Below are positions 5,445-63,645 of a stretch of DNA of 64,000 nucleotides, one piece after another. Location of the stretch: IMG/VR virus record IMGVR_UViG_3300036715_003363; one strand, given 5' to 3'. The stretch is from a virus. Position numbers and translations under genes: made by a program. Under the pieces are notes generated by a model that did no database searches, had not been told where the DNA came from, and saw nothing but the letters and a program-made list of their open reading frames with translations. How positions within the stretch are numbered: the first letter of the stretch is position 1; each line of letters starts with the position of its first letter.

Positions 5445-5759
5445 ATGAGTGTATATCATACTCTAACACCCAAGGAGGTCCAACTACTCTCTTCTTTTTC
5501 ATATAAGAAGAGTGATTCACTTACACATTTCGAAGATGTTAAGCGGAACGAAGTGTTGGACGAAGAGTTGAGTGAGCGGTGTATGATCTGCAACAAGGAG
5601 AAAGGGCAGCATCGCGCCGGTGTCCCTCATTCTTGTCCTCTACCAAGTTTTAACAGTGTTTGGAGTGGCTGGTCATCAGAAAATGAATTTGTATCTTTGC
5701 TGAGTACTCTAAAGAAAGAGACTGCGGAAACGTTTAAAGATATTGTCAATGACTTATAA
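5445..5759 (+). CDS. Hypothetical protein with CxxC and C-terminal TFxDIxxL tag
   Basis: CMIC..H..C; ends TAETFKDIVNDL. Confidence 0.75.
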   Translation: MSVYHTLTPKEVQLLSSFSYKKSDSLTHFEDVKRNEVLDEELSERCMICNKEKGQHRAGVPHSCPLPSFNSVWSGWSSENEFVSLLSTLKKETAETFKDIVNDL

Positions 5760-5794
5760 ATTGAAAATACTATTGAACTATGATAATTAATGAT

Positions 5795-6016
5795 ATGGCT
5801 AAACCAACAGAAACAGAACTACTCATTGCTGAGATTGAAAGATTAACTAAAAACAGATCAGAACTGATCGCTGCATATGAAGATCTTGTAAGTCTTCTCG
5901 GCGCTGAGATTCAAGAAACTGCTCCTCTTGCTTTTCAGGCAATGAACGGCAAATGGAAGTCTCGCAGAGTACATGCCGGTTTTGCGGCGCGCGAGAGAGT
6001 TGATAGACTCAAGTAA
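5795..6016 (+). CDS. Hypothetical coiled-coil protein
   Basis: Probable start MAKP; TAATG coupling to next gene. Confidence 0.65.
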   Translation: MAKPTETELLIAEIERLTKNRSELIAAYEDLVSLLGAEIQETAPLAFQAMNGKWKSRRVHAGFAARERVDRLK

Positions 6017-6249
6017 TGACTGATTCTAAACAAATTTGTATGGGGTGCGGACATGAAAGAGATATGCACTACGTAGTGCACTGCACTGTGCACAGTAATA
6101 TGAACGGCACAGATTATACAATTGTATGTCCAAGTGAGAGGGGAGCACTCAAAGCGTTATTTGATACAAGGAACGGCACATTCACACCACGACCAGTTCT
6201 TTCAGACGAGGCAGAGGAAACATTTGGAGATATAATCGATGAGCTCTAA
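6016..6249 (+). CDS. Hypothetical protein with CxxC and C-terminal tag
   Basis: CMGC.H...H; ends LSDEAEETFGDIIDEL. Confidence 0.75.
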   Translation: MTDSKQICMGCGHERDMHYVVHCTVHSNMNGTDYTIVCPSERGALKALFDTRNGTFTPRPVLSDEAEETFGDIIDEL

Positions 6250-6559
6250 CGAATATATTAACGATGAGGAATATAATAAGAGGCTCGATCACTGGAGAGA
6301 CTCTTTAATGGTAGGTGATCGAGTAATTTTTCAGACCAGATACGGACTCAAAGAGGGTACTATACATGACAGTCGAGCTACTCGCTATAAAAATATTAAA
6401 GCTGACCAAAGATATTCTTGGATTAGTATTGATGAGAGTAATTGTGGTTCACCGCCGTTTGTGGCATTTAATTGCTATCCAACAAAGCATGATGAGGTAA
6501 CTCTTAGACTCTCTGCAGGCGCACTAAAAACATTTGGAGATATAATCAATGAACTTTAA
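6239..6559 (+). CDS. Hypothetical protein (possible SH3/KOW-like fold) with C-terminal tag
   Basis: L.VGDRV.F...G...G.I; ends LSAGALKTFGDIINEL. Confidence 0.7.
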   Translation: MSSNEYINDEEYNKRLDHWRDSLMVGDRVIFQTRYGLKEGTIHDSRATRYKNIKADQRYSWISIDESNCGSPPFVAFNCYPTKHDEVTLRLSAGALKTFGDIINEL

Positions 6560-6758
6560 AGTTTTTTTTACTGCACTCATAAAGGACAAGCCGCCCGAAA
6601 AGAATTCGAAGGCTGATGCAGGCTATGTTCCTGTATGTTTAAATGAACAATACTGCAAGGACTGTACAATGTGGAGAGAGCCGAATCAATGCACTGCAGT
6701 TCGCGGATTAATTGAAAGAGAGGCATCTTGCAATTGGTGGAGAAAAGGAGATATATAA
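6549..6758 (+). CDS. HiPIP-like (high-potential iron-sulfur) protein
   Basis: SK.DAGY...QYCKDCTMW..PNQCTAVRG.I...ASCNWW matches HiPIP Y..CxxC..F/W..C..V.G.I...C..W. Confidence 0.65.
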   Translation: MNFKVFFTALIKDKPPEKNSKADAGYVPVCLNEQYCKDCTMWREPNQCTAVRGLIEREASCNWWRKGDI

Positions 6759-6798
6759 TTTTATTGCCGTTCCGTAATAAATATAATATAACCATTAT

Positions 6799-7219: not shown

Positions 7220-7954
7220 ATGCATCTTCTCCAGGAAATTAATAACATCTACGATATCTACAGATCAATGATATTATTTGAGACAGAGTCGGGTAATAAT
7301 ATCAATGGAATTGATCCAAAGACTTGGGCGAAACTTGAGCTCACCATTCGTCGCTGTAAGTACGCGCTCATGAGGAAGAGTGTCTTTATTGGTAATGTTC
7401 TTGCACGACTTAAGATTTGTTTTACGAATGATATTGATACAATGGCTGTTGATGATTACGGAAACATTTATATTAGCCCGAAGTTTGCTCTTTCAATCTC
7501 TGAGGACGAAGTTACTGCAGTCTTAGCTCATGAAGCGTTCCACATTATTAATATGACTTTCTTTAGAAAGCGTGGAAGAGATCATGAGCTTTGGAACATC
7601 GCAACAGATTATTTGATGAACATGTATCTCCTTCAGGATGGATTTAAACTTCCTGAATGTGGTTGTAACCCAGTTAAAAAAGGTGATCGCTGGGTAATTC
7701 CAGTACTCAGAGGAACGAAAGAGATTAAGGATACGGATATCACAGAACTTTCTGCTGATGATTTATATAATATCTTATATAGTATTGCTGTACCTCGGAA
7801 TAAAGGAGGAGGCGACAGTTCAATTAATGTTGGGGATGTTGTTTACGATGAAACCACTAAAAAATATGGTGTTGTAACGAGCATCAATCCAAAGACTAAC
7901 AAAGTTCAATCACGTGAAATACCTGAATCAGAAGTGGAGAGACATTTAAAATAA
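7220..7954 (+). CDS. Putative metallopeptidase (N-terminal half of DUF2201-like VWA partner)
   Basis: TMAVD.YG.IY, VLAHEAFH (HExxH), WNIATDY.MN. Confidence 0.85.
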   Translation: MHLLQEINNIYDIYRSMILFETESGNNINGIDPKTWAKLELTIRRCKYALMRKSVFIGNVLARLKICFTNDIDTMAVDDYGNIYISPKFALSISEDEVTAVLAHEAFHIINMTFFRKRGRDHELWNIATDYLMNMYLLQDGFKLPECGCNPVKKGDRWVIPVLRGTKEIKDTDITELSADDLYNILYSIAVPRNKGGGDSSINVGDVVYDETTKKYGVVTSINPKTNKVQSREIPESEVERHLK

Positions 7955-8898
7955 TGGAATCAAATTTAACAGATCTTAAGAAAGTTGTTCGAGTCGACGC
8001 CGGCGGTGGCGGTAGAGTAGCTCCAGATAACGTTAAGCCTTGGGGAAAGTCGAGCTCGCCACCGCAGCCCGGTGAGAAGAAGATTACAAAGGGCGGTGAT
8101 ACTCTTGACGATCACTTAGAGGGCGGTGATAAGAAACCAGATGTCCTTGATACTCCGGATGACTCTGATGAATTTAAACCTAGCGACGGCAGTGAAAAAA
8201 CCGAGCAAGAAAAAATTGCAGATATGAAGGAAAAGATTACAGGTGCTCTTCAGGAGGCTGAAAAGGCAAGGGGTAGCGGAGGAGGAGCTCCTCGTTGGTT
8301 TGATAAGAAAATTTTTGCTCCGAAAACAAACTGGAAGAAAGTTCTTCGCGATTATATCACAAAGAGTTCAAAGCATGCTTATGATTGGGGTCGCCCAAAT
8401 AAAAGAGCACTAGCTGCTGGCTATTACGCTCCAAAGAATACAACTTTAAAGAGTGATTTGGAGGCTGTGATTGCCATTGACACTTCTGGGTCCATGACAC
8501 AGCCAGTACTTACAACGTTTGTGAGTGAAATCGTTGGAATTGTTCGCTCAGTTAAAAACGCCAAGCTCACAATTCTTTTGTGGCATGATGAGGTTTACAG
8601 GCAATTCGAAATTGATTCTAGTAAAACTGATTCGGGAATGATTCCATCTGTAATTAACGCCGCCAATCCACAATCCGGCGGCACCAAATTAAGTTGTATT
8701 GATCAATACTTTAAAAAGAACGCAATTAAGACTGATAAATTAAACTTACTAATCCTCACTGACGGACAAGTTGAATCAAATCCAATTCTCCCAAGAACAC
8801 AAAAGAGACCTATTTTCCTTATTAACAGCGACTCCGGAACGGATGAAATGTTAAAGGGAAGGGGTGAAATATACTTTGTAGACATAGGACATAAATAA
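7954..8898 (+). CDS. VWA-domain protein (C-terminal half of DUF2201-like)
   Basis: W.RPN.R, AIDTSGSM (MIDAS DxSxS), GGT, ILTDG. Confidence 0.9.
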   Translation: MESNLTDLKKVVRVDAGGGGRVAPDNVKPWGKSSSPPQPGEKKITKGGDTLDDHLEGGDKKPDVLDTPDDSDEFKPSDGSEKTEQEKIADMKEKITGALQEAEKARGSGGGAPRWFDKKIFAPKTNWKKVLRDYITKSSKHAYDWGRPNKRALAAGYYAPKNTTLKSDLEAVIAIDTSGSMTQPVLTTFVSEIVGIVRSVKNAKLTILLWHDEVYRQFEIDSSKTDSGMIPSVINAANPQSGGTKLSCIDQYFKKNAIKTDKLNLLILTDGQVESNPILPRTQKRPIFLINSDSGTDEMLKGRGEIYFVDIGHK

Positions 8899-8918
8899 AA
8901 TAAATAAACAAACAAACA

Positions 8919-10601
8919 ATGTCAAAGAACAAATCAGAACTTAGAGGTCTTCAGTCCGCGTACTCGCGCGTTAACGAAGCAGACGAATCGTCAAACCCGG
9001 CAATTACCGCAGCTGCTCAACAGATTGCAGGAAAAGTTGAGGCGGGATTAAAGTCAAAGTCAAAGGCTCCCGTCGGACCAGCTAATCCGGAGAAAAAGAA
9101 GATTGGATATTTTGATGTTAAGAATCCTGGATCATGGTCTGCTGTGGAGACTCCTCCCGGTGATGAAGGATTTAACATTGGTACTTGGAACGGCTATAAG
9201 ACACTTGTCATTGACTTAGTTCGCGCCTATCACGCAGATCCAAAAGAGAATCTTCTCGTTTATGGTGATGCAGGTATCGGTAAGAGTGCAACTGTTCTTC
9301 AGGTTTGTAGAAGAATGGCTGAAGAAGAAGGCAAAGAGTTTGCAAATTGGGGTAAGTCTTCTTCTGAAAAGAAGATGGATATGATGAACCATCCTGAGAA
9401 ATATTTTGCATTAGTTGATATTCGTACTGCGGGTCTTGAGCCATCAGATATCGTTGGTATACCAAATATCAATTCAGCAAAGGATTACCTTGAAGTAAAG
9501 CAAGGTCCGTGGATCTATTTTATCTCGCGTCCTGAAGCTTCAGGATTTATTTTCTTTGATGAAATTAACCAGGGATCTGAGCAAGTTCTTAAGGCCTTCT
9601 TTGAGGTTGTGTACGATAAGTCCGCTGCTGGAACTCCGATTTCAGATCGCATGTCTATTGTTGCCGCTGGTAACCTTGGAGGCATTTATAACAATGCCGA
9701 TCTTCCTCCAGCTTTAACAGATCGCTTTACTGCTGGGTTCCTTATTGTTGATAGTCATGCATGGCTTCGTTGGGCTGAGGGAAGCGATGATGGCGATGAT
9801 GATGTTGATTCTCTCGTTGCAAGTACTTCACGACTTGCAACGGTTGCAAAAAATCCTGGATTAAAAGCTCCTCGACTTGATCCTCTTATTCTTGGATTTG
9901 TAAAATCTAATCCAACTGAAAACTTTAACTTTAAGCCAGTTCATGGGCAACCTTCAAACAAGCTTCCAACCCCTCGTAGTATGACTGCGCTTACAAGGTC
10001 TCTACACAAGATTTATCAGGACTACTATCACGTTGAAAACACTGAGGATTTTGCTCATTTTAATGCTGAACCAATGATGCAGGCCATGGCCAGAAAAGCA
10101 GCTCATATCTGCGGCCCTCACTGGGGTAATGCATTTATGGCCTTTGTTGAGCATATGTGGAAACTCACTCTAGAAAAAGTTCTCGGTCACGCTGAGCGTG
10201 GTGAGCTTGGAGCAAAATCTAAAGCATATGTTGGTGCTGGGATGACTCACGCAATCATGCGTTGGCTTACTGAGAAGATTCGTGTAACAGTTGAGAGCAT
10301 TAAGGCTGGAAACCCTGCTAATGCTGAAGATGAAAAGATTCTTACTGCAGTAGCTATTATTTCAAACCATCTTGCAAAAACTGCTCCGGAGTGGCTTGCA
10401 ACTCTCTGGTCAACGTTTAAATATGAAATGCCGGATGAATGGGCTGTGATTCTGGAGTATCTAGAAAGCGGCAAATATGATGATAAAATCAAAAAAGAAT
10501 TTAAGACTACAACACTCAATAAGCTAAAACTTTCAATTACTGATATTAGTAACATTACCTATGACTCAAACGGCCAGCCACAGCTTAAACCTAAAAAATA
10601 A
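8919..10601 (+). CDS. MoxR-like AAA+ ATPase
   Basis: Walker A GDAGIGKS, Walker B IFFDEINQ, AAGN, PPAL.DRF, PTPRS. Confidence 0.9.
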   Translation: MSKNKSELRGLQSAYSRVNEADESSNPAITAAAQQIAGKVEAGLKSKSKAPVGPANPEKKKIGYFDVKNPGSWSAVETPPGDEGFNIGTWNGYKTLVIDLVRAYHADPKENLLVYGDAGIGKSATVLQVCRRMAEEEGKEFANWGKSSSEKKMDMMNHPEKYFALVDIRTAGLEPSDIVGIPNINSAKDYLEVKQGPWIYFISRPEASGFIFFDEINQGSEQVLKAFFEVVYDKSAAGTPISDRMSIVAAGNLGGIYNNADLPPALTDRFTAGFLIVDSHAWLRWAEGSDDGDDDVDSLVASTSRLATVAKNPGLKAPRLDPLILGFVKSNPTENFNFKPVHGQPSNKLPTPRSMTALTRSLHKIYQDYYHVENTEDFAHFNAEPMMQAMARKAAHICGPHWGNAFMAFVEHMWKLTLEKVLGHAERGELGAKSKAYVGAGMTHAIMRWLTEKIRVTVESIKAGNPANAEDEKILTAVAIISNHLAKTAPEWLATLWSTFKYEMPDEWAVILEYLESGKYDDKIKKEFKTTTLNKLKLSITDISNITYDSNGQPQLKPKK

Positions 10602-10604
10602 TCA

Positions 10605-11072
10605 ATGAACAAAAAAGAATTAAAACATTTAGCAGAAGCTCACTACTTCACAGGTCAGAAACTATCTGACGAACAGTATAATGAATTAAGAGAATCAGAG
10701 TATTCTCATGTCATTGCAATTCGTTCAAAATTTGACGAACTTCTTCAAGAAGCTCTTCCGGAAGAAGTCTCTCATAAATTACCTGATGCGTATGCAAAAA
10801 GAAAACATTCTGGGTTTCATGTTGGAGTTGATAAAAATGCCGCTGATCATCTTATTGATACTGTTGAGGATCATTTCAATCTTGGTATTACCAACACATC
10901 AACTCGCAAGTATTTATCTGTTAACATCGAAGAGCTAAAGAGCTTTATTCTTAATCATATCGACGATGAAGGAGTAGATAAAGTTACGAGCGAACATGCT
11001 CATAATATTGTTGATAAGCAGGGTGCTGATGTATATGATGTTATGAAGGGATTGTATTCTCTCGGCTCGTAA
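10605..11072 (+). CDS. Hypothetical protein
   Basis: 155-aa ORF continuing the operon; LAEAHY leader. Confidence 0.7.
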   Translation: MNKKELKHLAEAHYFTGQKLSDEQYNELRESEYSHVIAIRSKFDELLQEALPEEVSHKLPDAYAKRKHSGFHVGVDKNAADHLIDTVEDHFNLGITNTSTRKYLSVNIEELKSFILNHIDDEGVDKVTSEHAHNIVDKQGADVYDVMKGLYSLGS

Positions 11073-11092
11073 TTGATTAAGCGCGAATACTG

Positions 11093-14634: not shown

Positions 14635-15801
14635 TCAACGGAACCCCATGCGCTTTTCTTCTTTAATTAAAGGAGTTGAGGTGTTTTCAACGTTTAGGTT
14701 GAAAATATCTGCTAGTGAAAGAGGTTCTTTTACAACATAGTCTCCACCAATTTCTTCAATGAGTTTCTTTGCCGTTGGCACGCTGAGTTTTTCAAACGCG
14801 TACTCTTTTTTGAGTCTGCCTTTGCGGAGAAGAGCAGCATCAAGCTCGTGGCGCGGATTGTTATAGGTCGCAATGATTGATACGTTAAAGATGTCTCCCA
14901 TAATTCCGTCTGTAAGGTTTAAGATGGTTGATACGAGTGATGAGCTGTCTCCTGCGTCTCTTTGTAATAGAGCCTTTTCAGCATCTTCGATAACAATAAC
15001 GCAGTGTTTTTTGTTTAGAAGTGCAGGGATAAATGCAGGGTCAGTAATTGCATCAATGAAGTTCGTTGGAACATAAATTACATTTCTGCTAATGACAGAG
15101 GAAAGATACTTAATGTATGTTGTTTTTCCTGTCCCTGGAGGGCCGTGAAGAAGGTATAGACCGCTTTTATTTTTGCTTAGACTACTTACGATTTGTTTAC
15201 TAATTTCAGCAAACTCTGGTTCATAGTGAGTGTTAATATTATAACTATCAGGAAGAGATACTTCAAAGGGTTCAAACGCAAAACCCTTTGAAGTTTTAAT
15301 AATTGTGTAGATTACGGACTTGAAGTCTGGTGTATATATAAACTGTTCAAAATCTTCAATTGGTGCCTTAGTGCCTGGGCAGTGAAAGATTGTAATTGAT
15401 AGTTTAAGAGATTCATCCTTTAACGACTTTGATTTTTTTGTTACGATTTCAATGATGCAATCTTTATAGGAAAATCTCGCGATGTAATCATTACCAGCTA
15501 CATCCCAGTCGGTTAGAAAGCAATCGTCACTATCGTATCTTTCTCTCGCGGGCATTTTATTTTTTGTTGGAGTAGCGGAAAGAAAGTCAGAGATAAGCTC
15601 GCCGTTATCTCTGAGATAACTTAAAGCTTCAAGAGAATAATCATCACCGGAATAAAGAGTGCATGGAATCATTCCATGCTTATGCTGAAACAGAATTCCG
15701 ATAGCAAGGTCTTGTGTACCGTGTCTTGTACTAAACATTTCGATAGTCTTGCTAACTTTAAACGGCTTTCCTACTCCAGTTTGAAGAATATTGTTGTTCA
15801 T
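14635..15801 (-). CDS. AAA ATPase (BCS1/AAA-like)
   Basis: GPPGTGKT, IVIEDAE, LN.TDG, LD.ALLRKGRL. Confidence 0.9.
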   Translation of the reverse strand: MNNNILQTGVGKPFKVSKTIEMFSTRHGTQDLAIGILFQHKHGMIPCTLYSGDDYSLEALSYLRDNGELISDFLSATPTKNKMPARERYDSDDCFLTDWDVAGNDYIARFSYKDCIIEIVTKKSKSLKDESLKLSITIFHCPGTKAPIEDFEQFIYTPDFKSVIYTIIKTSKGFAFEPFEVSLPDSYNINTHYEPEFAEISKQIVSSLSKNKSGLYLLHGPPGTGKTTYIKYLSSVISRNVIYVPTNFIDAITDPAFIPALLNKKHCVIVIEDAEKALLQRDAGDSSSLVSTILNLTDGIMGDIFNVSIIATYNNPRHELDAALLRKGRLKKEYAFEKLSVPTAKKLIEEIGGDYVVKEPLSLADIFNLNVENTSTPLIKEEKRMGFR

Positions 15802-15802
15802 A

Positions 15803-16873
15803 TTATTTCATGAAAGGATTTGGAGGAACCTCTCTAAGCTCAGGGCCTTTAAAAAAGAGTTCGGAGGCAAAGCGGTTAATTTCAAGTCGAGCTCTTGAAT
15901 CCTTTTCGCCTAGTTTGTGTGACGCAACAAACGTGAGAGCATTGAACAGATCATAGCTGTTAACGTTTGATGTTGCACTACTCTTCCAACGAGCGTTTTT
16001 ACTTGCAAGATTTACTCCAGCACCAGCATATGCATTAACAATTGAAGTGTCGTCGAAGATACCTCCTTGATCAAGAGCGTTATCAAAGCCTTTTGCGAGT
16101 TTTTGCGCAATAAAATACTCTCTAAGAGAGGCTGCACTCTCAAGAAGTCTCTTTCCATTTTTTATTACATCCTTTGTTCCTTCCGCACCAGATGCATACG
16201 GCGCAATTTGACGGTTAAATGTTCGTTGTGTTAAATCTTTTGAGATAACAAAGCGTTGTGTCATTTGGTGTACAGCCTTCATTCCGTTTGCACAGATGAG
16301 ACGGATATAGAATGGATACGTCTGAAACTTATTTAACCCTGCGGTTGTTCCAAAGCCTCCTTCCCAAATATCTTTTCCGTCTCCAAATACATCGATTGAA
16401 AAACTCGGTGAACGAAAATCAGTATGAACTGAAAGATCGACCGGATTAAAATACATTGAAGATAGAGTAAGATCTTCAGTATGTGTTTTTAGAAAATTTT
16501 CCGTGTATTGAAGACTTTTTGAAAGATCAATAAACCCGTCATTTTCTTCTCGATAAGAAACGATTTGCGAGACCTCTTTACACTTTGTGTTGATAACTGC
16601 AGTAACCTTTATATCTTCTTTAATACAAGCAAGTGCTTCATGAAGAGGCTCCCATTGCTCTGCATCATCTTTAATGTCATCAACAAGACTCTTCTTAACG
16701 CCAAGAAGGCTTAGAAGGCCCTCAATTGACTGTTCAGTAAACTTATTTCCGTTAACAATAAATGTGTCTTTATTTTTCTGAATATCCGAAACACTTAAAT
16801 GAACTAAACGATATTCATCGATAGTGCTTTGAACTTTTTCTTTTGCGGCGACGTACCTGTCAATTGTTTTCAT
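15803..16873 (-). CDS. DUF932/DUF945-like protein
   Basis: IRLICANGM and SYDLFNALT motifs. Confidence 0.55.
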   Translation of the reverse strand: MKTIDRYVAAKEKVQSTIDEYRLVHLSVSDIQKNKDTFIVNGNKFTEQSIEGLLSLLGVKKSLVDDIKDDAEQWEPLHEALACIKEDIKVTAVINTKCKEVSQIVSYREENDGFIDLSKSLQYTENFLKTHTEDLTLSSMYFNPVDLSVHTDFRSPSFSIDVFGDGKDIWEGGFGTTAGLNKFQTYPFYIRLICANGMKAVHQMTQRFVISKDLTQRTFNRQIAPYASGAEGTKDVIKNGKRLLESAASLREYFIAQKLAKGFDNALDQGGIFDDTSIVNAYAGAGVNLASKNARWKSSATSNVNSYDLFNALTFVASHKLGEKDSRARLEINRFASELFFKGPELREVPPNPFMK

Positions 16874-38399: not shown

Positions 38400-38408
38400 T
38401 TAGAACAC

Positions 38409-49429: not shown

Positions 49430-49460
49430 TATTGAGACTTAAAAGCGCATATATGATTAT

Positions 49461-49766
49461 ATGAATTTTATAAAGATTTATAACAGTTTGTGCGACAGAG
49501 GACAAAACAGAATTAAAAATTTAAGCGAAGACGATAAGAAAAAAAGATTGAGTAAAAATCTTCATAGCGACAAAGTTGATCATATCGCTAGAGGAAAAGC
49601 TATATCAAAGAGTAAAAAAGAAAAAACGAACCAGTCTAATATAACTTCTGAGAGATTAGGAAAAATGAATGATGTAGAATTTACAAAATATCTAGAATCG
49701 ATATCACACAGAATGCATACAAGAGCTATAAACTTTAGAAATAAATGGAAGAATATATCACAATAA
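49461..49766 (+). mobile_element. Degenerate free-standing homing endonuclease-like ORF inside polB
   Basis: MNFIKIYNSLCDRGQNR resembles HNH endonuclease N-termini, but no HNH core remains. Confidence 0.5.
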
Positions 49767-52057
49767 AAGATTTTAAAAAAATCCAACACACAGATGAATA
49801 TGAAGTATGGGATGAAAAAAAGAAAGAGTGGCTATCTTTTGATCAAACTGTTTATAGCGGAGATACGTCATTCCCTAATGTTTTAAATCCAAAACATCCA
49901 GTACTACTTATAACCATACACAATTCTCTTACAGATGAATATGACACATGGGGCCTTGTAAAGAATTACACTCCAAAGCTTCCAAACGTTAGATACCATA
50001 AATGCAAAGATGAAGGAGAATTATTTGAGAAGTTTATGCGTTTTTGGAAAGCTGATCCTCCCGATATTTTATGTGGTTGGAACTCAGAGCAGTTTGATAT
50101 TCCGTATATTATTAATAGAGCAAAAAAACTTTTCAGTGAAGAATTCATTAATCAGTTGTCACCAGTTGGTAATCTTTATTACAGAGAGACTCATAATAGA
50201 TTCGGACAAGATTCTGGTAGATGGATTATTGGAGGAATTAGCTGTTTAGATTATCTTGATGTATATAAAGCTTTTTCTAAAGGGAGTAGAGAATCATATT
50301 CCTTAAATTATATTGCAGAGTATGAGCTAGATGAAGGTAAGCTTGCGTTTAATGCAGTAGGACTCGCGGCCCTAGCAGATAATGACTGGGACACATTTGT
50401 TGATTACAATATTCAGGACGTAACTCTGTTGAAGAGACTGGATGACAAACTAAAATATTTGAGTATTGTAAGACTTCTTGCATATAAAGGATGTACAAAT
50501 TTTGAAGCAGCACTTGGAAAAGTTTCAATTGTTACAGGAGCGATGGCCTTACAAGCTAATAAAATGGGATTAGTAATTCCAACATTTAAAACAGAACATG
50601 ATGTTGAAACATTTGCAGGAGGATATGTAAGAGAACCTGAAAAAGGAATTAAAGATTCAATTGTAAGTTTTGACGTTAATTCGCTGTACCCAAATACAAT
50701 TATTACTTTGAATATTTCTGCAGAAACAAAAATGGGTAAAATTGTAACAGGAGATATTGATAAGGATGATGAGATTCAAATCAAGCTTGTCAATGGAAAG
50801 CTTGCAACAGTTAAAGTTAAAAACTTTAAAACATTCATTAAAAATGAAAATATTTCAGTATCAAAGGCAGGAGTATTATACACTCAAAAATACAAGGGTG
50901 TTTGTCCTTTACTAATTGACGGCCTCTATAAAGAGCGCATTGCAGTGAGAAATAAAATGAATGATCTTAAAAAGACGAAGAAAAAAGATGAGGAAACATT
51001 GTCACAGATTACAAGATTAGATAATATGCAGCAAGCGGTTAAGGTATTTTTGAATTCGATTTACGGAACGCTCGCAAATAAACATTCTCCTTTCGTCGAT
51101 ATTGATAGCGCTTCATCAGTTACACTCACTGGACAAGCAGTTGCAAAACAAGGTGCAATTATTATTGATAATTTTGCAAAGGAGAAGTGGGGAGTTGAAG
51201 AGTCGCTTACATTAGCTTCAGATACAGACAGCTGTTATATAACGATCCAGCCTATATTAGATAAATTAGGGATAAAACTTGTTGATGAACAAGGAGTTGT
51301 CACTGCAGAAGCACATAAAATTGTTAATGCAATTGGAAAAATTGTAAATACTGGAGTAATTGAGTGGGCAAAATTAGAACTCAATTCAATTGATCCGAGA
51401 TTTGAATTTAAGAGAGAAGCGATTGCTGATGTAGGAGTATTTACAACGAAGAAAAGATATATTCTTCATATTCTAGATGATGAGGGAGTATCAACAAGTA
51501 AATTTAAGTATGTCGGTGTTGAATTAGCTCGTTCAACAACTCCAAAACCAGTAAAGGCTCTTTTAAAGAAAACAATTGATACTGCTCTTCTATCAAAAGA
51601 TATTAAGAAGACAAATGAAGTTTTTAGAGAGGCTTACGATGAGTTTAAGAGAATGCCAATTGAAGATATATCTTTCAGAAGAGCAGTAAATAATATTTCA
51701 AAGTTTTCAAGTGGTGCATCATTAACAAAGTTTGTAAGTCGAACTCCAGGTCATGTAAAAGCAGCATTGGCTCACAATTTACTTCTTGATAAGTTTGGCA
51801 TTAAAAACAAATATGAAGTTGTAAATTCAGGACAAAAAATTAAGTGGTTCTATGCGGAAAAAAATCAATATGGAGTTGAATCAGTTGGGTTTATTAGCCA
51901 ATATCCAACAGAATTCGCAGCAATAAAAATTGACTATGATAAGATGTTCGGCAAGATTGTTGTTCCTCCAATTGAGGCAATTTATGATGCAATTGGATGG
52001 CATATTCCACAGATAGGAAAAGAGACTGTAACTGATTTATCTGATTTATTCAGTTGA
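49745..52057 (+). CDS. Family B DNA polymerase, C-terminal fragment (T4 gp43-like)
   Basis: GWNSEQFDIPY, YNIQDV, SFDVNSLYP, K..LNSIYG, DTDS, KKRY; C-terminal DLSDLF. Confidence 0.95.
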   Translation: MEEYITIKDFKKIQHTDEYEVWDEKKKEWLSFDQTVYSGDTSFPNVLNPKHPVLLITIHNSLTDEYDTWGLVKNYTPKLPNVRYHKCKDEGELFEKFMRFWKADPPDILCGWNSEQFDIPYIINRAKKLFSEEFINQLSPVGNLYYRETHNRFGQDSGRWIIGGISCLDYLDVYKAFSKGSRESYSLNYIAEYELDEGKLAFNAVGLAALADNDWDTFVDYNIQDVTLLKRLDDKLKYLSIVRLLAYKGCTNFEAALGKVSIVTGAMALQANKMGLVIPTFKTEHDVETFAGGYVREPEKGIKDSIVSFDVNSLYPNTIITLNISAETKMGKIVTGDIDKDDEIQIKLVNGKLATVKVKNFKTFIKNENISVSKAGVLYTQKYKGVCPLLIDGLYKERIAVRNKMNDLKKTKKKDEETLSQITRLDNMQQAVKVFLNSIYGTLANKHSPFVDIDSASSVTLTGQAVAKQGAIIIDNFAKEKWGVEESLTLASDTDSCYITIQPILDKLGIKLVDEQGVVTAEAHKIVNAIGKIVNTGVIEWAKLELNSIDPRFEFKREAIADVGVFTTKKRYILHILDDEGVSTSKFKYVGVELARSTTPKPVKALLKKTIDTALLSKDIKKTNEVFREAYDEFKRMPIEDISFRRAVNNISKFSSGASLTKFVSRTPGHVKAALAHNLLLDKFGIKNKYEVVNSGQKIKWFYAEKNQYGVESVGFISQYPTEFAAIKIDYDKMFGKIVVPPIEAIYDAIGWHIPQIGKETVTDLSDLFS

Positions 52058-54972: not shown

Positions 54973-55335
54973 ATGAGCGAAAACCAAGTTATTACATTTT
55001 TTGACACCATCGGCCGCACCATTCTCGGCAAACAAGTTGACTCAAATGAACAAACAATCACAGTTGAAAATCCAGCTGTAGTACAGATTACACCAAATCA
55101 GTCAAACGGTCAACTTACTCTTCAAATTCTCCCTATATTTTTTAGAGAATTTCTTGCAGATCCTAACGCGGCAATTCAGGTTATTTATAATCGCAGTACA
55201 ATTAATGAAATTAAAAATCTAACACTCAGCTTTAGAGTTAAAGCTCAATATGAGCAGAACTTTTTGCCTCAAGGCGCAGCACCCGCTCAACCCGTTGCAC
55301 CTAAAGCGGATGTAATAAAATTATTCGAAGATTAA
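54973..55335 (+). CDS. Hypothetical (Sm-like beta) protein
   Basis: 120-aa ORF upstream of uvsX. Confidence 0.7.
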   Translation: MSENQVITFFDTIGRTILGKQVDSNEQTITVENPAVVQITPNQSNGQLTLQILPIFFREFLADPNAAIQVIYNRSTINEIKNLTLSFRVKAQYEQNFLPQGAAPAQPVAPKADVIKLFED

Positions 55336-55366: not shown

Positions 55367-55372
55367 AAATAC

Positions 55373-58483: not shown

Positions 58484-58948
58484 ATGAGCTTTAATAAACA
58501 AAAATGGCTTAAAACTGTTAAGCACACAATTCACTCAGATGGAAGTATTTCTGTACAAGGAGATGTTAATCTATATGATAAAAAACTGACAGAGTTACCC
58601 TTTAAGTTTCGTAAAGTAACTGGAAACTTTGACTGTTCTCGCAACCAATTAACATCTCTAAATGATTGTCCGGCTTCAGTTGATAGAAACTTTTACTGTT
58701 CTCACAACCAATTAACATCTCTAAATGGCGGTCCGTCTTCAGTTGGTGGAAACTTCTACTGTATTCACAACAAATTAACATCTCTAAATGGTTGTCCATC
58801 TTCAGTTGGTGGAAGTTTTAACTGTTATTACAACCTAAAAGATTTTACTAAACTGGATATTGAAAACGCAATGAGAGCTAGTAGAACTAAAAATAGTTTG
58901 AGCTCTCAAGCCTTGGAGACTTTCAGTGATATAATCGATGAACTATGA
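58484..58948 (+). CDS. LRR array gene 1 (3 full modules)
   Basis: N-cap, xxxFxCxxNxLTSLNGCPSSV repeats, DIIDEL tail. Confidence 0.9.
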   Translation: MSFNKQKWLKTVKHTIHSDGSISVQGDVNLYDKKLTELPFKFRKVTGNFDCSRNQLTSLNDCPASVDRNFYCSHNQLTSLNGGPSSVGGNFYCIHNKLTSLNGCPSSVGGSFNCYYNLKDFTKLDIENAMRASRTKNSLSSQALETFSDIIDEL

Positions 58949-58958
58949 GCTATAAATT

Positions 58959-59675
58959 ATGAACTTTAATGCACAACAATGGCTTAAAACTGTTAAGCAC
59001 ACAATTCACACAGATGGAAGTATCTCCGTACAAGGAGATGTTAATCTATATGATAAAAAACTGACAGAGTTACCCTTTAAGTTTCGTAAAGTATCTGGAG
59101 ACTTTAACTGTTATAACAACAAATTAACATCTCTAAATGGTTGTCCTTCTTCAGTTGGCAGAGACTTTAACTGTGGTGACAACCAATTAACATCTCTAAG
59201 TGGTTGTCCGTCTTCAGTTGATGGAGACTTTAACTGTACTCACAACAGATTAACATCTCTAAATGGTTGTCCTTCTTCAGTTGATGGAAACTTTAACTGT
59301 ACTCTCAACCAATTAACATCTTTAAACGGTGGTCCGTCTTCAGTTAGTGGATACTTTTACTGTGATAACAACAAATTAACATCTCTAAATGGTTGTCCGT
59401 CTTCAGTTAGTGGAGGCTTTGACTGCTCTTACAACAGATTAACATCTCTAAGTGGTTGTCCGTCTTCAGTTGGTGGAGACTTTTACTGTTCTCACAACCA
59501 ATTAACATCTCTAAATGGCGGTCCGTCTTCAGTTGGTGGAAGTTTTAACTGTTATTACAACCTAAAAGATTTTACTAAACTGGATGTTGAAAACGCAATG
59601 AGAGTTAGTAGAATTAAAAGTAGTTTGAGCTCTCAAACCTTGGATACTTTCAGTGATATAATCGATGAACTATGA
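58959..59675 (+). CDS. LRR array gene 2 (7 modules)
   Basis: Same architecture, 238 aa. Confidence 0.9.
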   Translation: MNFNAQQWLKTVKHTIHTDGSISVQGDVNLYDKKLTELPFKFRKVSGDFNCYNNKLTSLNGCPSSVGRDFNCGDNQLTSLSGCPSSVDGDFNCTHNRLTSLNGCPSSVDGNFNCTLNQLTSLNGGPSSVSGYFYCDNNKLTSLNGCPSSVSGGFDCSYNRLTSLSGCPSSVGGDFYCSHNQLTSLNGGPSSVGGSFNCYYNLKDFTKLDVENAMRVSRIKSSLSSQTLDTFSDIIDEL

Positions 59676-60325
59676 ACTTTAATGCACAACAATGGCTTAA
59701 AACTGTTAATCACACAGTTCACTCAGATGGAAGTATCTCTGTACAAGGAGATGTTGATCTACGTAATAAAAACCTGACAGAGATACCCTTTAAGTTTCGT
59801 AAAGTATCTGGAAGATTTGACTGTTCTCACAACCAATTAACATCTCTAAATGGTTGTCCGTCTTCAGTTGATGGAAACTTTGACTGTTATTTCAACCAAT
59901 TAACATCTCTAAATGGCTGTCCAGCTTCAGTTGATGGAAACTTTAACTGTTATAACAACAAATTAACATCTCTAAATGGTTGTCCATCTTCAGTTGGTGG
60001 GGACTTTAGCTGTTCTAACAACCAATTAACATCTCTAAATGGTTGTCCGTCTTCAGTTAGTGGAGGATTTTACTGTTCTAACAACCAATTAACATCTTTA
60101 AACGGTGGTCCTTCTTCAGTTGGCAGAGACTTTCACTGTTCTAACAACAAATTAACATCTCTAAATGGTTGTCCGTCTTCAGTTGGTGGAAGTTTTAACT
60201 GTTATTACAACCTAAAAGATTTTACTGAACTGGATATTGAAAACGCAATGAGAGCTAGTAAAATTGAAAGTAGTTTGAGTTCTCAAACCTTAGATACTTT
60301 CAGTGATATAATCGATGAACTTTAA
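59672..60325 (+). CDS. LRR array gene 3 (6 modules)
   Basis: Same architecture, 217 aa. Confidence 0.9.
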   Translation: MNFNAQQWLKTVNHTVHSDGSISVQGDVDLRNKNLTEIPFKFRKVSGRFDCSHNQLTSLNGCPSSVDGNFDCYFNQLTSLNGCPASVDGNFNCYNNKLTSLNGCPSSVGGDFSCSNNQLTSLNGCPSSVSGGFYCSNNQLTSLNGGPSSVGRDFHCSNNKLTSLNGCPSSVGGSFNCYYNLKDFTELDIENAMRASKIESSLSSQTLDTFSDIIDEL

Positions 60326-61094
60326 TAAACAACAATGGCTTAAAACTGTTAAGCACACAGTTCACTCAGATGGAAGTATCTCTGTACAAGGAGATGTTGA
60401 TCTATATGATAAAAAACTGACAAAGATACCCTTTAAGTTTCGTAAAGTAACTGGAGACTTTAACTGTGCTCACAACAATTTAACATCTCTAAATGGTTGT
60501 CCGTCTTCAGTTAGTGGAGGCTTTGACTGCTCTTACAATAAATTAAAGTCTCTAAATGGCTGTCCATCTTCAGTTGATGGAAGATTTGACTGTTATGGCA
60601 ACCAATTAACATCTCTAAATGGTTGTCCGGCTTCAGTTAGTGGAGACTTTCACTGTGGTAACAACCAATTAACATCTCTAAGTGGTTGTCCGTCTTCAGT
60701 TAGGGGAGACTTTTACTGTCACAACAACCAATTAACATCTCTAAATGGTTGTCCGTCTTCAGTTAGTGGAGGCTTTTACTGTTTTAACAACAAATTAACA
60801 TCTCTAAATGGTTGTCCGTCTTCAATTGGTAAAGACTTCTACTGTAATAACAACAAATTAACATCTCTAAATGGTTGTCCGTCTTCAATTGGTAAAGACT
60901 TCTACTGTAATAACAACAAATTAACATCTCTAAATGGTTGTCCGGCTTCAGTTGGTGGAAGTTTTAACTGTTATTACAACCTAAAAGTTTTTACAAAACT
61001 GGATATTGAAAACGCAATGAGAGCTAGTAGAATTAAAAGGAATTTGAGCTCTCAAGCCTTGGATACTTTCAGTGATATAATCGATGAACTATAA
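60315..61094 (+). CDS. LRR array gene 4 (8 modules)
   Basis: Same architecture, 259 aa. Confidence 0.9.
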   Translation: MNFNKQQWLKTVKHTVHSDGSISVQGDVDLYDKKLTKIPFKFRKVTGDFNCAHNNLTSLNGCPSSVSGGFDCSYNKLKSLNGCPSSVDGRFDCYGNQLTSLNGCPASVSGDFHCGNNQLTSLSGCPSSVRGDFYCHNNQLTSLNGCPSSVSGGFYCFNNKLTSLNGCPSSIGKDFYCNNNKLTSLNGCPSSIGKDFYCNNNKLTSLNGCPASVGGSFNCYYNLKVFTKLDIENAMRASRIKRNLSSQALDTFSDIIDEL

Positions 61095-61097
61095 ATT

Positions 61098-61625
61098 ATG
61101 AGCTTTAATAAACACCAATGGCTTAAAACTGTTAAGCACACAATTCACTCAGACGGAAGTATCTCCGTACAAGGAGATGTTAATCTATGTAATAAAAAAC
61201 TGACAAAGATACCCTTTAAGTTTCGTAAAGTAACTGGAAACTTTGACTGTTCTCGCAACCAATTAACATCTCTAAATGGTTGTCCAGCTTCAGTTGATAG
61301 AAACTTTTACTGTAATAACAACCAATTAACATCTCTAAATGGTTGTCCGTCTTCAGTTGGCGGAAACTTTTACTGTCACTGCAACAAATTAACATCTCTA
61401 AATGGTTGTCCGGCTTCAGTTAGTGGAGACTTTCACTGTGGTAACAACCAATTAACATCTCTAAATGGTTGTCCGTCTTCAGTTAGTGGAGGCTTTTACT
61501 GTTCTGACAACCTAAAAGATTTTACTGAACTGGATATTGAAAACGCAATGAGAGCTAGTAGACTAAAAAGTAGGTTGAGCTCTCAAACCTTGGATACTTT
61601 CAGTGATATAATCGATGAACTTTAA
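61098..61625 (+). CDS. LRR array gene 5 (4 modules)
   Basis: Same architecture, 175 aa. Confidence 0.9.
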   Translation: MSFNKHQWLKTVKHTIHSDGSISVQGDVNLCNKKLTKIPFKFRKVTGNFDCSRNQLTSLNGCPASVDRNFYCNNNQLTSLNGCPSSVGGNFYCHCNKLTSLNGCPASVSGDFHCGNNQLTSLNGCPSSVSGGFYCSDNLKDFTELDIENAMRASRLKSRLSSQTLDTFSDIIDEL

Positions 61626-62394
61626 TAAACAACAATGGCTTAAAACTGTTAAGCACACAGTTCACTCAGATGGAAGTATCTCCGTACAAGGAGATGTTAA
61701 TCTATATGATAAAAACCTGACAGAGATACCCTTTAAGTTTCGTAAAGTATCTGGAGACTTTAACTGTGCTCACAACAATTTAACATCTCTAAATGGTTGT
61801 CCGTCTTCAGTTAGTGGAAACTTTTACTGTTCTGACAACCAATTAACATCTCTAAATGGTTGTCCGTCTTCAGTTGATGGAAGATTTGACTGTTATGGCA
61901 ACCAATTAACATCTCTAAATGGTTGTCCGGCTTCAGTTAGTGGAGACTTTCACTGTGGTAACAACCAATTAACATCTCTAAGTGGTTGTCCGTCTTCAGT
62001 TAGTGGAGGCTTTTACTGTCACAACAACCAATTAACATCTCTAAATGGTTGTCCGTCTTCAGTTAGTGGAGGCTTTTACTGTAATAGCAATAAATTAACA
62101 TCTCTAAATGGTTGTCCGTCTTCAGTTGGTGAAGACTTTTACTGTAATAATAATAAATTAACATCTTTAAGTGGCTGTCCTTCTTCAGTTGATGGAGACT
62201 TTAACTGTAATAACAATAAATTAACATCTCTAAACGGTTGTCCGTCTTCAGTTGGCAGAGACTTTGACTGTTATGGCAACCTAAAAGTTTTTACAAAACT
62301 GGATGTTGAAAACGCAATGAGAGCTAATAGAATAAAAAGGAATTTGAGCTCTCAAGCCTTGGATACTTTCAGTGATATAATCGATGAACTATAA
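61615..62394 (+). CDS. LRR array gene 6 (8 modules)
   Basis: Same architecture, 259 aa. Confidence 0.9.
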   Translation: MNFNKQQWLKTVKHTVHSDGSISVQGDVNLYDKNLTEIPFKFRKVSGDFNCAHNNLTSLNGCPSSVSGNFYCSDNQLTSLNGCPSSVDGRFDCYGNQLTSLNGCPASVSGDFHCGNNQLTSLSGCPSSVSGGFYCHNNQLTSLNGCPSSVSGGFYCNSNKLTSLNGCPSSVGEDFYCNNNKLTSLSGCPSSVDGDFNCNNNKLTSLNGCPSSVGRDFDCYGNLKVFTKLDVENAMRANRIKRNLSSQALDTFSDIIDEL

Positions 62395-62397
62395 ATT

Positions 62398-63051
62398 ATG
62401 AGCTTTAATAAACAACAATGGCTTAAAACTGTTAAGCATACAGTTCACTCAGACGGAAGTATCTCCGTACAAGGAGATGTTAATCTATATGATAAAAAAC
62501 TGACAGAGATACCCTTTAAGTTTCGTAAAGTAACTGGAAACTTTGACTGTTCTCGCAACCAATTAACATCTCTAAGTGGTTGTCCGTCTTCAGTTAGTGG
62601 AAACTTTTACTGTTCTGACAACCAATTAACATCTCTAAATGGTTGTCCATCTTCAGTTGGTGGAAACTTTCACTGTCACTGCAACAAATTAACATCTCTA
62701 AATGGTTGTCCGGCTTCAGTTAGTGGAGACTTTAGCTGCTCTCACAACAGATTAACATCTCTAAATGGTTGTCCGGCTTCAGTTGGCAGAGACTTTCACT
62801 GTTATAACAACCAATTAACATCTCTAAACGGTTGTCCGGCTTCAGTTAGTGGAGGCTTTGACTGCTCTCACAACAAATTAACATCTCTAAATGGTTGTCC
62901 GTCTTCAGTTGGCAGAGACTTTGACTGTTATGGCAACCTAAAAGTTTTTACAAAACTGGATATTGAAAACGCAATGAGAGCTAGTAGAATTAAAAGTAGT
63001 TTGAGCTCTCAAACCTTGGATACTTTCAGTGATATAATCGATGAACTATAA
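62398..63051 (+). CDS. LRR array gene 7 (6 modules)
   Basis: Same architecture, 217 aa. Confidence 0.9.
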   Translation: MSFNKQQWLKTVKHTVHSDGSISVQGDVNLYDKKLTEIPFKFRKVTGNFDCSRNQLTSLSGCPSSVSGNFYCSDNQLTSLNGCPSSVGGNFHCHCNKLTSLNGCPASVSGDFSCSHNRLTSLNGCPASVGRDFHCYNNQLTSLNGCPASVSGGFDCSHNKLTSLNGCPSSVGRDFDCYGNLKVFTKLDIENAMRASRIKSSLSSQTLDTFSDIIDEL

Positions 63052-63054
63052 ATT

Positions 63055-63645
63055 ATGAGCTTTAATAAACAACAATGGCTTAAAACTGTTAAGCACACAA
63101 TTCACTCAGACGGAAGTATCTCTGTACAAGGAGATGTTGATATATGTGATAAAAACCTGACAAAGATACCCTTTAAGTTTCGTAAAGTAACTGGAGACTT
63201 TAACTGTATTCTCAACAAATTAACATCTCTAAATGGTTGTCCTTCTTCAGTTGGTGGAAATTTTTACTGTTTTAACAACCAATTAACATCTCTAAATGGT
63301 TGTCCGTCTTCAGTTGGTGGAAACTTTAGCTGCTCTCACAACAGATTAGCATCTCTAAATGGCTGTCCGTCTTCAGTTAGGGGAAACTTTAACTGTTATC
63401 ACAACCAATTAACATCTCTAAATGGTTGTCCGTCTTCAGTTGGTGAAGACTTTTACTGTAATAACAACCAATTAACATCTCTAAATGATTGTCCGGCTTC
63501 AGTTGGTGGAGACTTTCGCTGTTATGGCAACCTAAAAGATTTTACTGAACTAGATATTGAAAACGCAATGAGAGCTAGTAGACTAAAAAGTAGGTTGAGC
63601 TCTCAGACCTTGGATACTTTCAGTGATATAATCGATGAACTATAA
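63055..63645 (+). CDS. LRR array gene 8 (5 modules)
   Basis: Same architecture, 196 aa. Confidence 0.9.
   Translation: MSFNKQQWLKTVKHTIHSDGSISVQGDVDICDKNLTKIPFKFRKVTGDFNCILNKLTSLNGCPSSVGGNFYCFNNQLTSLNGCPSSVGGNFSCSHNRLASLNGCPSSVRGNFNCYHNQLTSLNGCPSSVGEDFYCNNNQLTSLNDCPASVGGDFRCYGNLKDFTELDIENAMRASRLKSRLSSQTLDTFSDIIDEL

What the first reader, a model, noticed from the sequence alone, without database searches (positions are those of the whole stretch)
5700..63645. Shared C-terminal tag LSxxAxxTFxDII(D/N)EL on unrelated proteins
Seen: the same terminal motif ends all eight complete LRR proteins (LSSQALETFSDIIDEL) and four proteins with unrelated bodies: 5445-5759 (TAETFKDIVNDL), 6016-6249 (LSDEAEETFGDIIDEL), 6239-6559 (LSAGALKTFGDIINEL) and, on the opposite strand, 19353-19823 (LSSRAKNTFEEIIDEL). 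Codons differ (GAT ATA ATC GAT GAA CTA versus GAG ATA ATA GAT GAG CTG), suggesting selection on the peptide. It always sits at the extreme C-terminus. Inference: a portable docking or sorting signal (acidic amphipathic helix) that loads diverse cargo, including the variable LRR binders, onto one partner such as a virion component, protease adaptor or replication clamp-like hub.
Basis: partly seen in the sequence, partly recalled or inferred. Interest (0 to 1): 0.85.

Follow-up and report, generated by a model that had tools for sequence, protein, structure and literature searches.

The report
Shared C-terminal tag on phage proteins
Twelve proteins of five unrelated kinds in this uncultured T4-like phage end in the same short acidic helix, which behaves like an address label whose tip changes on all carriers together between related phages, and which travels with one phage-encoded ATPase/adaptor/protease gene set that is its most likely, but unproven, reader.

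Summary
Twelve ORFs in the window (eight LRR proteins and four unrelated small proteins) end in ...TFx[DE]I[IV][DN][DE]L directly before the stop. No copy is internal. A tag profile scores these 12 at 39-48 bits and the next ORF at 6 bits. Synonymous codons differ, so selection acts on the peptide.

In a 1.84-billion-protein library the tag ends 64 further small proteins with diverse bodies. A related complete phage (G001) carries the same module on 22 ORFs but with another tip (...FGGLLDV[LI]). Fourteen of those have body homologues that carry the window-type tip, one 81% identical, so the tip changes in concert.

Five lineages, each with its own tag version, place tagged genes beside one operon: zincin peptidase, vWA (intact MIDAS), MoxR AAA+ ATPase. 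In the window this is 7220-11072, 660 bp from three tagged genes. One of these phages shares only 4 of 97 window ORFs with the window, and three of the four are this operon.

My best reading is a docking tag read by this MoxR-vWA-peptidase module. A host-encoded reader is not excluded.

This scan has noted similar lineage-specific C-terminal tags in other uncultured phages. I found no paper describing them.

The parts
5445..5759 (+). 104-aa small protein with a Cys/His-rich body; tag is the last 16 codons, 5709-5756 (most divergent copy, ends ...DIVNDL)
   Evidence: 39 bits; no Pfam or PHROG match
6016..6249 (+). 77-aa small Cys/His-rich protein; tag 6199-6246
   Evidence: 41 bits; body unrelated to the other carriers
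6239..6559 (+). 106-aa protein; tag 6509-6556 (ends ...DIINEL); its ATG lies inside the tag of the preceding gene
   Evidence: 41.6 bits
19353..19823 (-). 156-aa protein on the opposite strand; tag 19356-19403 (ends ...EIIDEL)
   Evidence: 42 bits; only self-hits among 5.8 billion proteins
58484..63645 (+). Tandem array of eight complete LRR genes (58484-58948, 58959-59675, 59672-60325, 60315-61094, 61098-61625, 61615-62394, 62398-63051, 63055-63645), each ending in the tag (last 16 codons before each stop)
   Evidence: 44-48 bits; Pfam LRR_4 30.6 bits against a cut-off of 27 for 60315-61094; AF2 pLDDT 93, solenoid plus two C-terminal helices 228-243 and 246-258
63649..63999 (+). Ninth LRR gene; it runs off the window, so its C-terminus is not seen
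7220..7954 (+). Zincin-type metallopeptidase (DUF2201_N, HExxH present). It is the N-terminal half of a vWA-peptidase that is a single protein in other phages
   Evidence: Pfam PF13203, E 2e-17; alignments A3 and A7
7954..8898 (+). vWA domain protein (DUF2201/VWA) with an intact MIDAS (D176, S178, S180, T244, D270). Candidate reader of the tag
   Evidence: Pfam; residues invariant in 40 homologues; profile hits integrin I domains, E 3.6e-5; the split form is conserved in P0071-P0080
8919..10601 (+). MoxR-type AAA+ ATPase (AAA_5)
   Evidence: Pfam AAA_5 25.8 bits against a cut-off of 22; PHROG ATPase; the G001 orthologue also hits bpMoxR
10605..11072 (+). 155-aa all-helical protein. It is the conserved fourth gene of the operon; function unknown
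   Evidence: orthologues sit after MoxR in G001, L199, L207, L208 and L209; AF2 pLDDT 73; no Foldseek PDB match

Best explanation
The tag is a portable C-terminal docking peptide. It is an acidic amphipathic helix preceded by a conserved L-S turn and, in many carriers, by a second helix. It marks a set of mostly small, fast-evolving early-region proteins, and the variable LRR binders, for one common partner. That partner most likely is the phage's own MoxR AAA+ / vWA / zincin-peptidase module (window 7220-11072). In this model the vWA MIDAS site or the peptidase groove grips the acidic helix and its free end. The ATPase then remodels the tagged protein, or the peptidase clips or degrades it or whatever it holds. 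Shown: the tag exists, is selected as a peptide, is strictly terminal, sits on many unrelated bodies, changes tip in concert between lineages, and is encoded next to this operon in five lineages. Inferred: that the operon reads it, which domain does so, and what happens to the cargo.
For: 1. The tag is real and under peptide-level selection.
2. It is portable. A profile search found 69 library representatives at E<=1e-3, and 64 of them end exactly in the tag, on 58-156-aa proteins with diverse bodies. There are 23 BLAST-unrelated body groups among 40 tagged ORFs.
3. It evolves in concert. G001 (complete, 218 kb) has 22 tagged ORFs of about 320 with the tip ...FGGLLDV[LI]. Fourteen have body homologues that carry the D[IL]IDEL tip, one with a body 81% identical.
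4. It is linked to the operon. Tagged genes lie within two genes of it in the window clade (window, L207, L208, L209), L226, G001, G006 (7 of 7 tagged ORFs within 20 kb downstream, none elsewhere in 140 kb) and G007 (22 in a 29-kb stretch around it, two of them between the MoxR and vWA genes). Each lineage has its own tag version.
5. G007 shares only 4 of 97 window ORFs with the window, and three of them are the operon.
6. In 71 polymerase-centred control loci the largest C-terminal cluster has at most 2 members.
7. The MIDAS and HExxH motifs are intact. The vWA profile matches integrin I domains, and MIDAS sites are described as binding extended peptides (PMC7159879).
8. The operon proteins are 29-42% identical between the window and G001, against a median of 49% for 37 shared proteins.
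Against: In G001 and in the window most tagged genes lie tens of kilobases from the operon. Clustering of small genes in plastic regions could produce some adjacency by chance. My rough estimate is about 0.1 per lineage, or about 1e-4 to 1e-5 over the lineages if they are independent. More distant versions of the operon show no clear tags within 10 kb: L227 (where it follows gp23), L201, L203, L205, L206, L166 and a cultured Vibrio jumbo phage. Concerted change of the tip is equally expected for a host-encoded reader. Faster evolution of the operon is only suggestive.
Confidence: 0.5

Rival explanations
1. The tag is read by a host protein, for example a protease or unfoldase adaptor, a chaperone or the host clamp. 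The lineage-specific tips would reflect different hosts, and the nearby MoxR-vWA operon would be coincidental.
For: Concerted tip change fits a host reader equally well. Most tagged genes in G001 lie far from the operon. Tagged genes sit in early-type regions of small ORFs typical of host-takeover genes.
Against: It does not explain why tagged genes flank the same operon in five lineages. It also does not explain why an otherwise unrelated phage shares only this operon with the window. The host is unknown, so nothing could be tested.
Confidence: 0.2
2. The tag is a virion or capsid targeting and assembly signal, analogous to the T4 capsid-targeting sequence but C-terminal. Tagged proteins are loaded into or onto particles, possibly with the MoxR-vWA-peptidase as assembly chaperone and processing enzyme.
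For: Iyer et al. 2021 (PMC7824862) propose a virion-assembly and processing role for this phage MoxR / vWA-metallopeptidase pair. In L227 the operon directly follows gp23. T4 internal proteins are likewise diverse cargo sharing one short peptide (my own knowledge).
Against: In the window the tagged genes lie among replication genes, co-oriented with gp41 and uvsX. The T4 late-promoter motif TATAAATA is not enriched (5 matches against 7.9 expected). Carrier counts of 7 to 22 or more per contig or genome, including a nucleotidase-like enzyme, are many for packaged cargo. No structural protein was seen to carry the tag.
Confidence: 0.12
3. The tag binds the phage sliding clamp (gp45), like the hydrophobic-acidic C-termini of T4 gp43, gp55 and gp33.
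For: The composition and the strictly C-terminal position resemble the T4 clamp-binding epitopes (PMC2988020). The window is a replication region.
Against: The window's polymerase ends in ...TDLSDLFS and its gp55 in an acidic, non-hydrophobic tail. Neither carries the tag. The polymerase tail is nearly the same in G001 (...TDLFDLLS), although the tags differ strongly. LRR binders and a nucleotidase-like enzyme are odd clamp clients. gp45 could not be identified in G001 with the Pfam models.
Confidence: 0.05
4. There is no separate reader. The terminal helix (or helix-turn-helix) is a self-association module that makes the carriers homo- or hetero-oligomers.
For: The hydrophobic spacing F, I, I, L (i, i+3, i+4, i+7) suits helix packing. 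AF2 gives a helical hairpin. Uniformity within a genome would permit mixed oligomers.
Against: It does not explain the linkage to the operon. The copies test could not be run.
Confidence: 0.08
5. The conservation is at DNA level. A gene-end cassette serves as a recombination or translational-coupling site, and the peptide is a by-product.
For: The next gene's ATG often lies inside the tag end (GATGAACTTTAA read as M-N-F-K/N). The Ile(-4) codon is ATC in 29 of 34 copies.
Against: Conserved residues outside the overlap use very different codons (Leu with TTR and CTN, Ser with AGY and TCN). Tags are kept where no gene follows or overlaps (6559, 19353). The tag always lies in one frame, at the end.
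Confidence: 0.03

Closest known systems
Clamp-binding C-terminal tails of T4 gp43, gp55 and gp33 (bind gp45)
   Same: A short hydrophobic and acidic peptide at the extreme C-terminus of unlike proteins, interchangeable between them, docking on one hub (PMC2988020).
   Different: Here the polymerase and gp55 lack the tag. There are dozens of carriers, mostly small proteins of unknown function plus LRR binders. The tip differs between phages whose polymerase tails stay alike. The linked genes are MoxR, vWA and a peptidase, not the clamp.
Capsid-targeting sequence (CTS) of T-even internal proteins
   Same: One short peptide shared by diverse, fast-evolving phage proteins and acting as an address label (my own knowledge; also named as closest known in earlier notes of this scan).
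   Different: The CTS is N-terminal and is removed by the prohead protease. This tag is C-terminal, is found in early-type regions, and has far more carriers.
MoxR AAA+ / vWA-metallopeptidase pair of T4-like jumbo phages (Iyer et al. 2021, PMC7824862)
   Same: The same gene pair: a MoxR ATPase next to a vWA protein fused to an N-terminal zincin peptidase, encoded by phages.
   Different: That paper proposes virion assembly and processing of structural proteins and mentions no shared C-terminal tag. Here the pair is linked to lineage-specific tags on non-structural-looking proteins, and the peptidase and vWA halves are separate ORFs.
vWA-MoxR ternary conflict systems and their peptide-processing modules (Kaur et al. 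2020, PMC7159879)
   Same: A MoxR-vWA core; the vWA MIDAS is proposed to hold an extended peptide; a repeat-protein third component; a zincin peptidase coupled to small, rapidly diverging proteins whose conserved part is the C-terminal peptide. The G001 MoxR hits Pfam bpMoxR.
   Different: Those systems are bacterial, with VMAP, iSTAND, beta-propeller or FtsH third components and one or a few precursor genes. Here the system is phage-encoded, the repeat protein is LRR, and 7 to 22 or more genes per contig or genome carry the peptide. Their motif types (FxSxx, RxD, acidic run) do not match.
C-terminal degrons such as the ssrA tag read by ClpXP/SspB
   Same: A terminal peptide with a free carboxylate that hands unlike proteins to an AAA+ machine (my own knowledge).
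   Different: The sequence is unlike ...LAA. The tag is genome-encoded on each gene. The candidate machine is of MoxR-vWA-zincin type, and degradation is not shown.

Membership tests
T4-type clamp-binding C-terminal epitope | Hydrophobic and acidic peptide at the extreme C-terminus | tested here: met
   All 12 copies end at the stop codon; composition F, I, I, L plus D/E
T4-type clamp-binding C-terminal epitope | Carried by the phage DNA polymerase and by gp55/gp33 | tested here: not met
   gp43 (49745-52057) ends ...TDLSDLFS; gp55 (30469-31800) ends in an acidic non-hydrophobic tail; neither matches the tag profile
T4-type clamp-binding C-terminal epitope | Binds the gp45 clamp | not testable with these tools
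T4 capsid-targeting sequence | N-terminal position, removed by the prohead protease | tested here: not met
   The tag is strictly C-terminal
Phage MoxR / vWA-metallopeptidase pair (Iyer 2021) | Adjacent genes for a MoxR-type AAA+ ATPase and a vWA protein with an N-terminal zincin domain | tested here: met
   7220-7954 DUF2201_N with HExxH; 7954-8898 DUF2201/VWA; 8919-10601 AAA_5. A single fused vWA-peptidase is found in G001, G006 and G007
vWA-MoxR ternary systems (Kaur 2020) | vWA with an intact MIDAS (DxSxS ... T ... D) | tested here: met
   D176, S178, S180 and D270 invariant and T244 nearly invariant (90% or more) in 40 homologues
vWA-MoxR ternary systems (Kaur 2020) | Third component of VMAP, iSTAND, beta-propeller or FtsH type | tested here: not met
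   The operon's further gene is a 155-aa helical protein with no family or fold match. The conserved neighbour is an LRR protein instead
Peptide-processing modules of vWA-MoxR systems (FxSxx-COOH and kin) | Zincin peptidase plus small rapidly diverging proteins with a conserved C-terminal peptide | tested here: inconclusive
   The architecture is analogous. The motif types differ, there are many more carriers, and no homology of peptidase or peptide to those modules was tested
Peptide-processing modules of vWA-MoxR systems (FxSxx-COOH and kin) | The peptidase cleaves the precursor to release the C-terminal peptide | not testable with these tools
   Needs biochemistry
Leucine-rich repeat proteins (bodies of eight carriers) | Tandem LRR units forming a solenoid | tested here: met
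   Pfam LRR_4 30.6 bits, above the cut-off, for 60315-61094; AF2 pLDDT 93 with a short strand pair recurring about every 21 residues

The most novel reading that the evidence does not exclude
The tag is the handle of a virus-encoded, programmable targeting system. Hypervariable LRR binders and dozens of small early proteins use it to plug into one MoxR-vWA-zincin machine. The phage can then deliver whatever these adaptors hold (for example host defence or housekeeping proteins), or the adaptors themselves on a timer, to ATP-driven remodelling or proteolysis. This would be a phage counterpart of substrate-receptor families such as F-box-LRR proteins. The tag-reader pair would co-evolve as a private code in each lineage.
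Probability: 0.15. Interest if true: 0.9.

Novelty: new variant of a known kind. Interest (0 to 1): 0.72.

Why it matters
Most small early genes of large phages have no known function. A shared, co-evolving address tag groups dozens of them, here together with a variable LRR binder repertoire, into one pathway. It also names a concrete candidate machine for that pathway: the MoxR / vWA / zincin operon, which is widespread in phages and has no demonstrated role. If the link holds, it gives that operon a function and a handle for pulling down the partners of many orphan phage proteins. It also offers a small portable peptide with lineage-specific orthogonal versions. The question becomes testable with a few recombinant proteins.

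Tried and rejected
- No whole genome is held for the window.
- Megablast and blastn against phage records found nothing. The nearest cultured polymerases are about 34% identical.
- The first regex scan of 80 polymerase-centred loci found no tag. That was too narrow, because relatives use other tips.
- The degenerate DNA pattern found only a chance hit in viral contigs. In metagenome contigs it gave 56 stretches. About 24 are expected by chance (my estimate). The single hits are short or internal ORFs and I treated them as chance, including L100, a bacterial-looking 350-aa enzyme.
- The 156-aa tagged protein has no homologue beyond its own copies.
- gp45 was not found in G001 with PF02916 or PF09116, nor by phmmer with the S-SM2 gp45. 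The 225-aa candidate (17748-18425) gave no PDB sequence match and only unnamed Atlas clusters.
- The 155-aa operon protein gave no fold match.
- A single-protein search for MoxR loci failed, and so did a four-sequence vWA alignment. Smaller alignments worked.
- The fragments G002-G005 have neither operon nor tag, but they are only about 50% complete, so this says nothing.
- The T4 late-promoter motif is not enriched.
- The S-SM2 cobS/'peptidase' pair is not detectably homologous to this operon, and no tag cluster was seen there.


Full report
**What the window is.** It is part of an uncultured T4-like phage; the longest contig carrying its proteins is 183.7 kb. It encodes a split family-B polymerase (49025-52057), gp46, gp47, UvsX, a gp41 helicase with a split intein, primase, UvsW, gp55 with an intein, 7-deazaguanine genes and a glycosyltransferase block. 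The nearest cultured polymerases are about 34% identical. No whole genome is held.

**The observation.** A six-frame scan finds the terminal motif 12 times, always as the last residues before a stop and never internally. A profile of the last 30 residues separates these 12 ORFs (39-48 bits) from everything else in 1245 six-frame ORFs (next best 6 bits). The carriers are eight LRR genes (58484-63645) and four small ORFs (5445-5759, 6016-6249, 6239-6559 and, on the minus strand, 19353-19823). The four small bodies have no mutual BLAST similarity and no Pfam or PHROG family. Codons differ at conserved residues, including Leu written with both TTR and CTN and Ser with both AGY and TCN. Selection therefore acts on the peptide, not the DNA.

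**Anatomy.** AF2 models an LRR carrier (60315-61094) at pLDDT 93. It is a solenoid followed by helix 228-243, a two-residue L-S break, and helix 246-258, which is the tag. Confidence falls to 73 at the very end. In the tag helix the residues F, I, I, L fall at i, i+3, i+4, i+7, with D/E between them, so the helix is acidic and amphipathic. In many small carriers from other contigs the conserved part extends to about 27-30 residues and includes the preceding helix.

**Spread.** A degenerate DNA pattern scanned over metagenome contigs found contigs with 3 to 18 tagged small ORFs in tandem (L092, L114, L134, L135/L136). It also found about 30 single hits that look like chance. A profile search of 1.84 billion representatives gave 69 proteins at E<=1e-3. 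Of these, 64 end exactly in the tag. They are 58-156 aa long with diverse bodies.

**Concerted change of the tip.** G001 is a complete 218-kb relative whose polymerase is 64% identical. It has 22 tagged ORFs out of about 320 with the same upstream module (L-S, T, then [ST]-F) but a different tip, mostly ...FGGLLDV[LI]. With tags trimmed, 14 of these 22 have body homologues among proteins carrying the D[IL]IDEL tip. One pair is 81% identical over 93 residues, yet its tails differ in the lineage-typical way. So the tag is ancestral, and its tip has shifted on many carriers together. That is what one common reader would produce. Gene conversion is unlikely because synonymous sites differ.

**Which reader? 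The clamp is unlikely.** T4 offers a precedent: the hydrophobic-acidic C-termini of gp43, gp55 and gp33 bind the clamp (PMC2988020). Here the polymerase and gp55 do not carry the tag. The polymerase tail is nearly constant between the window and G001, while the tags differ.

**Which reader? The operon next to the tagged genes.** About 660 bp downstream of the three tagged small genes lies an operon:
- 7220-7954: zincin peptidase (DUF2201_N, HExxH).
- 7954-8898: vWA protein with a complete MIDAS.
- 8919-10601: MoxR-type AAA+ ATPase.
- 10605-11072: a conserved 155-aa helical protein.

The vWA profile matches integrin I domains, and the peptidase part matches a minimal zincin, MJ1213.

The same operon is flanked by tagged genes in five lineages, each with its own tag version:
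- The window clade. In L207, L208 and L209 a convergent large LRR-tag gene and tagged small genes follow the 155-aa gene.
- L226, with [TH]FG[DE]I..[DE]L on five ORFs around the operon.
- G001, where a 662-aa LRR-tag gene lies directly downstream.
- G006, where seven proteins of 159-1188 aa end in ...G[IV].IDI. All lie within 20 kb downstream of the operon, and none lies elsewhere in 140 kb.
- G007, where 22 ORFs end in ...M[VI]E.L. All lie in a 29-kb stretch around the operon, and two lie between the MoxR and vWA genes.

G007 shares only 4 of 97 window ORFs with the window, and three of those are this operon. In 71 polymerase-centred control loci no C-terminal cluster exceeds two members. The operon proteins are also among the most diverged shared proteins between the window and G001: 29-42% identity against a median of 49%.

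**Limits.** Most tagged genes in G001, and the window's LRR array, lie far from the operon. Distant versions of the operon show no clear tags nearby. These include L227, where it follows gp23; L201, L203, L205, L206 and L166; and a cultured Vibrio jumbo phage, where it sits among tail genes. A host-encoded reader would also give concerted tip change. What happens to the cargo (clipping, degradation, remodelling, assembly or packaging) is unknown. The window's tagged genes lie in an early or middle context without T4 late-promoter motifs. This argues mildly against a structural role.

**Literature.** Iyer et al. 2021 (PMC7824862) noted the phage MoxR / vWA-metallopeptidase pair and proposed a role in virion assembly. 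They mention no tags. Kaur et al. 2020 (PMC7159879) describe bacterial vWA-MoxR systems in which the MIDAS is thought to hold an extended peptide, and peptide-processing modules with a zincin and small variable proteins that keep a conserved C-terminal peptide. Three searches found no paper on shared C-terminal tags of phage proteins linked to this operon.

**Earlier notes of this scan.** They report comparable lineage-specific C-terminal tags in other uncultured phages, some with the same operon as suspect. I treated them as leads. The linkage shown here was worked out on this window's own relatives.

**Verdict.** It is a genuine, peptide-selected, portable C-terminal tag that evolves in concert. 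I rate 'address label for one partner' at about 0.8 and 'the partner is the phage's MoxR-vWA-zincin module' at about 0.5.

Noticed in passing
window 6239, 60315, 61615; L135; G001 195-199 kb: The next gene's ATG often lies inside the tag end (GAT GAA CTT TAA read one base on as ATG AAC TTT AA.), which gives N-termini M-N-F-K/N. In G001 the D-V-L/I end gives M-Y-F or M-S-F-K. Many tagged proteins also share an N-terminal M-[NS]-F-[KN]-x-hydrophobic-hydrophobic-x-E motif even without an upstream tagged gene (for example 19353-19823).
   Followed up: partly
G001 194210-195088 (L163:14210-15088, minus strand): One 292-aa ORF contains three tag copies, two internal and one terminal. It is either three fused carriers or a small polyprotein.
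   Followed up: no
window 7220-8898: The vWA-peptidase gene is split into two ORFs at the point where G001 has a long Q/G-rich linker. The split form is conserved in ten database homologues 46-68% identical, so it is not an assembly error.
   Followed up: partly
L207 10472-11692, L208 7724-9640, L209 13141-14595, G001 37945-39933: The operon-adjacent large tagged proteins are homologous. They share a conserved N-terminal domain of unknown kind, followed by LRRs and the tag. The window's short LRR genes look like derivatives that lack this N-terminal domain.
   Followed up: partly
window 54973-55335 and G001 156137-156505: A 120-aa protein just upstream of uvsX ends in a conserved V-[IV]-K-L-F-E-D in both phages. 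This is a different C-terminal motif of unknown meaning.
   Followed up: no
window 5063-5440: The gene before the first tagged ORF contains an internal stretch resembling the first half of the tag (L-S-P-E-F-Y-K-T-F-N-D). It scores only 3 bits and may be chance or a relic.
   Followed up: no
window 17748-18425: A 225-aa protein has a confident Atlas model (pTM 0.83) and only unnamed viral relatives. Its G001 orthologue lies about 670 bp from the tagged nucleotidase-like gene and about 4 kb from the operon. It is the size of a sliding clamp but was not identified.
   Followed up: partly
window 14635-16873: A classic AAA (PF00004) ATPase of 388 aa, with a 200-residue N-terminal extension, and an adjacent 356-aa protein of no family are both conserved in G001 (54% and 48% identity). 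Their function is unknown.
   Followed up: no
L227 (219.6-kb freshwater contig): In this T4-like phage the vWA-peptidase / MoxR / small-protein operon sits directly after the portal, prohead-protease and gp23 genes, and no tags are seen within 10 kb.
   Followed up: no
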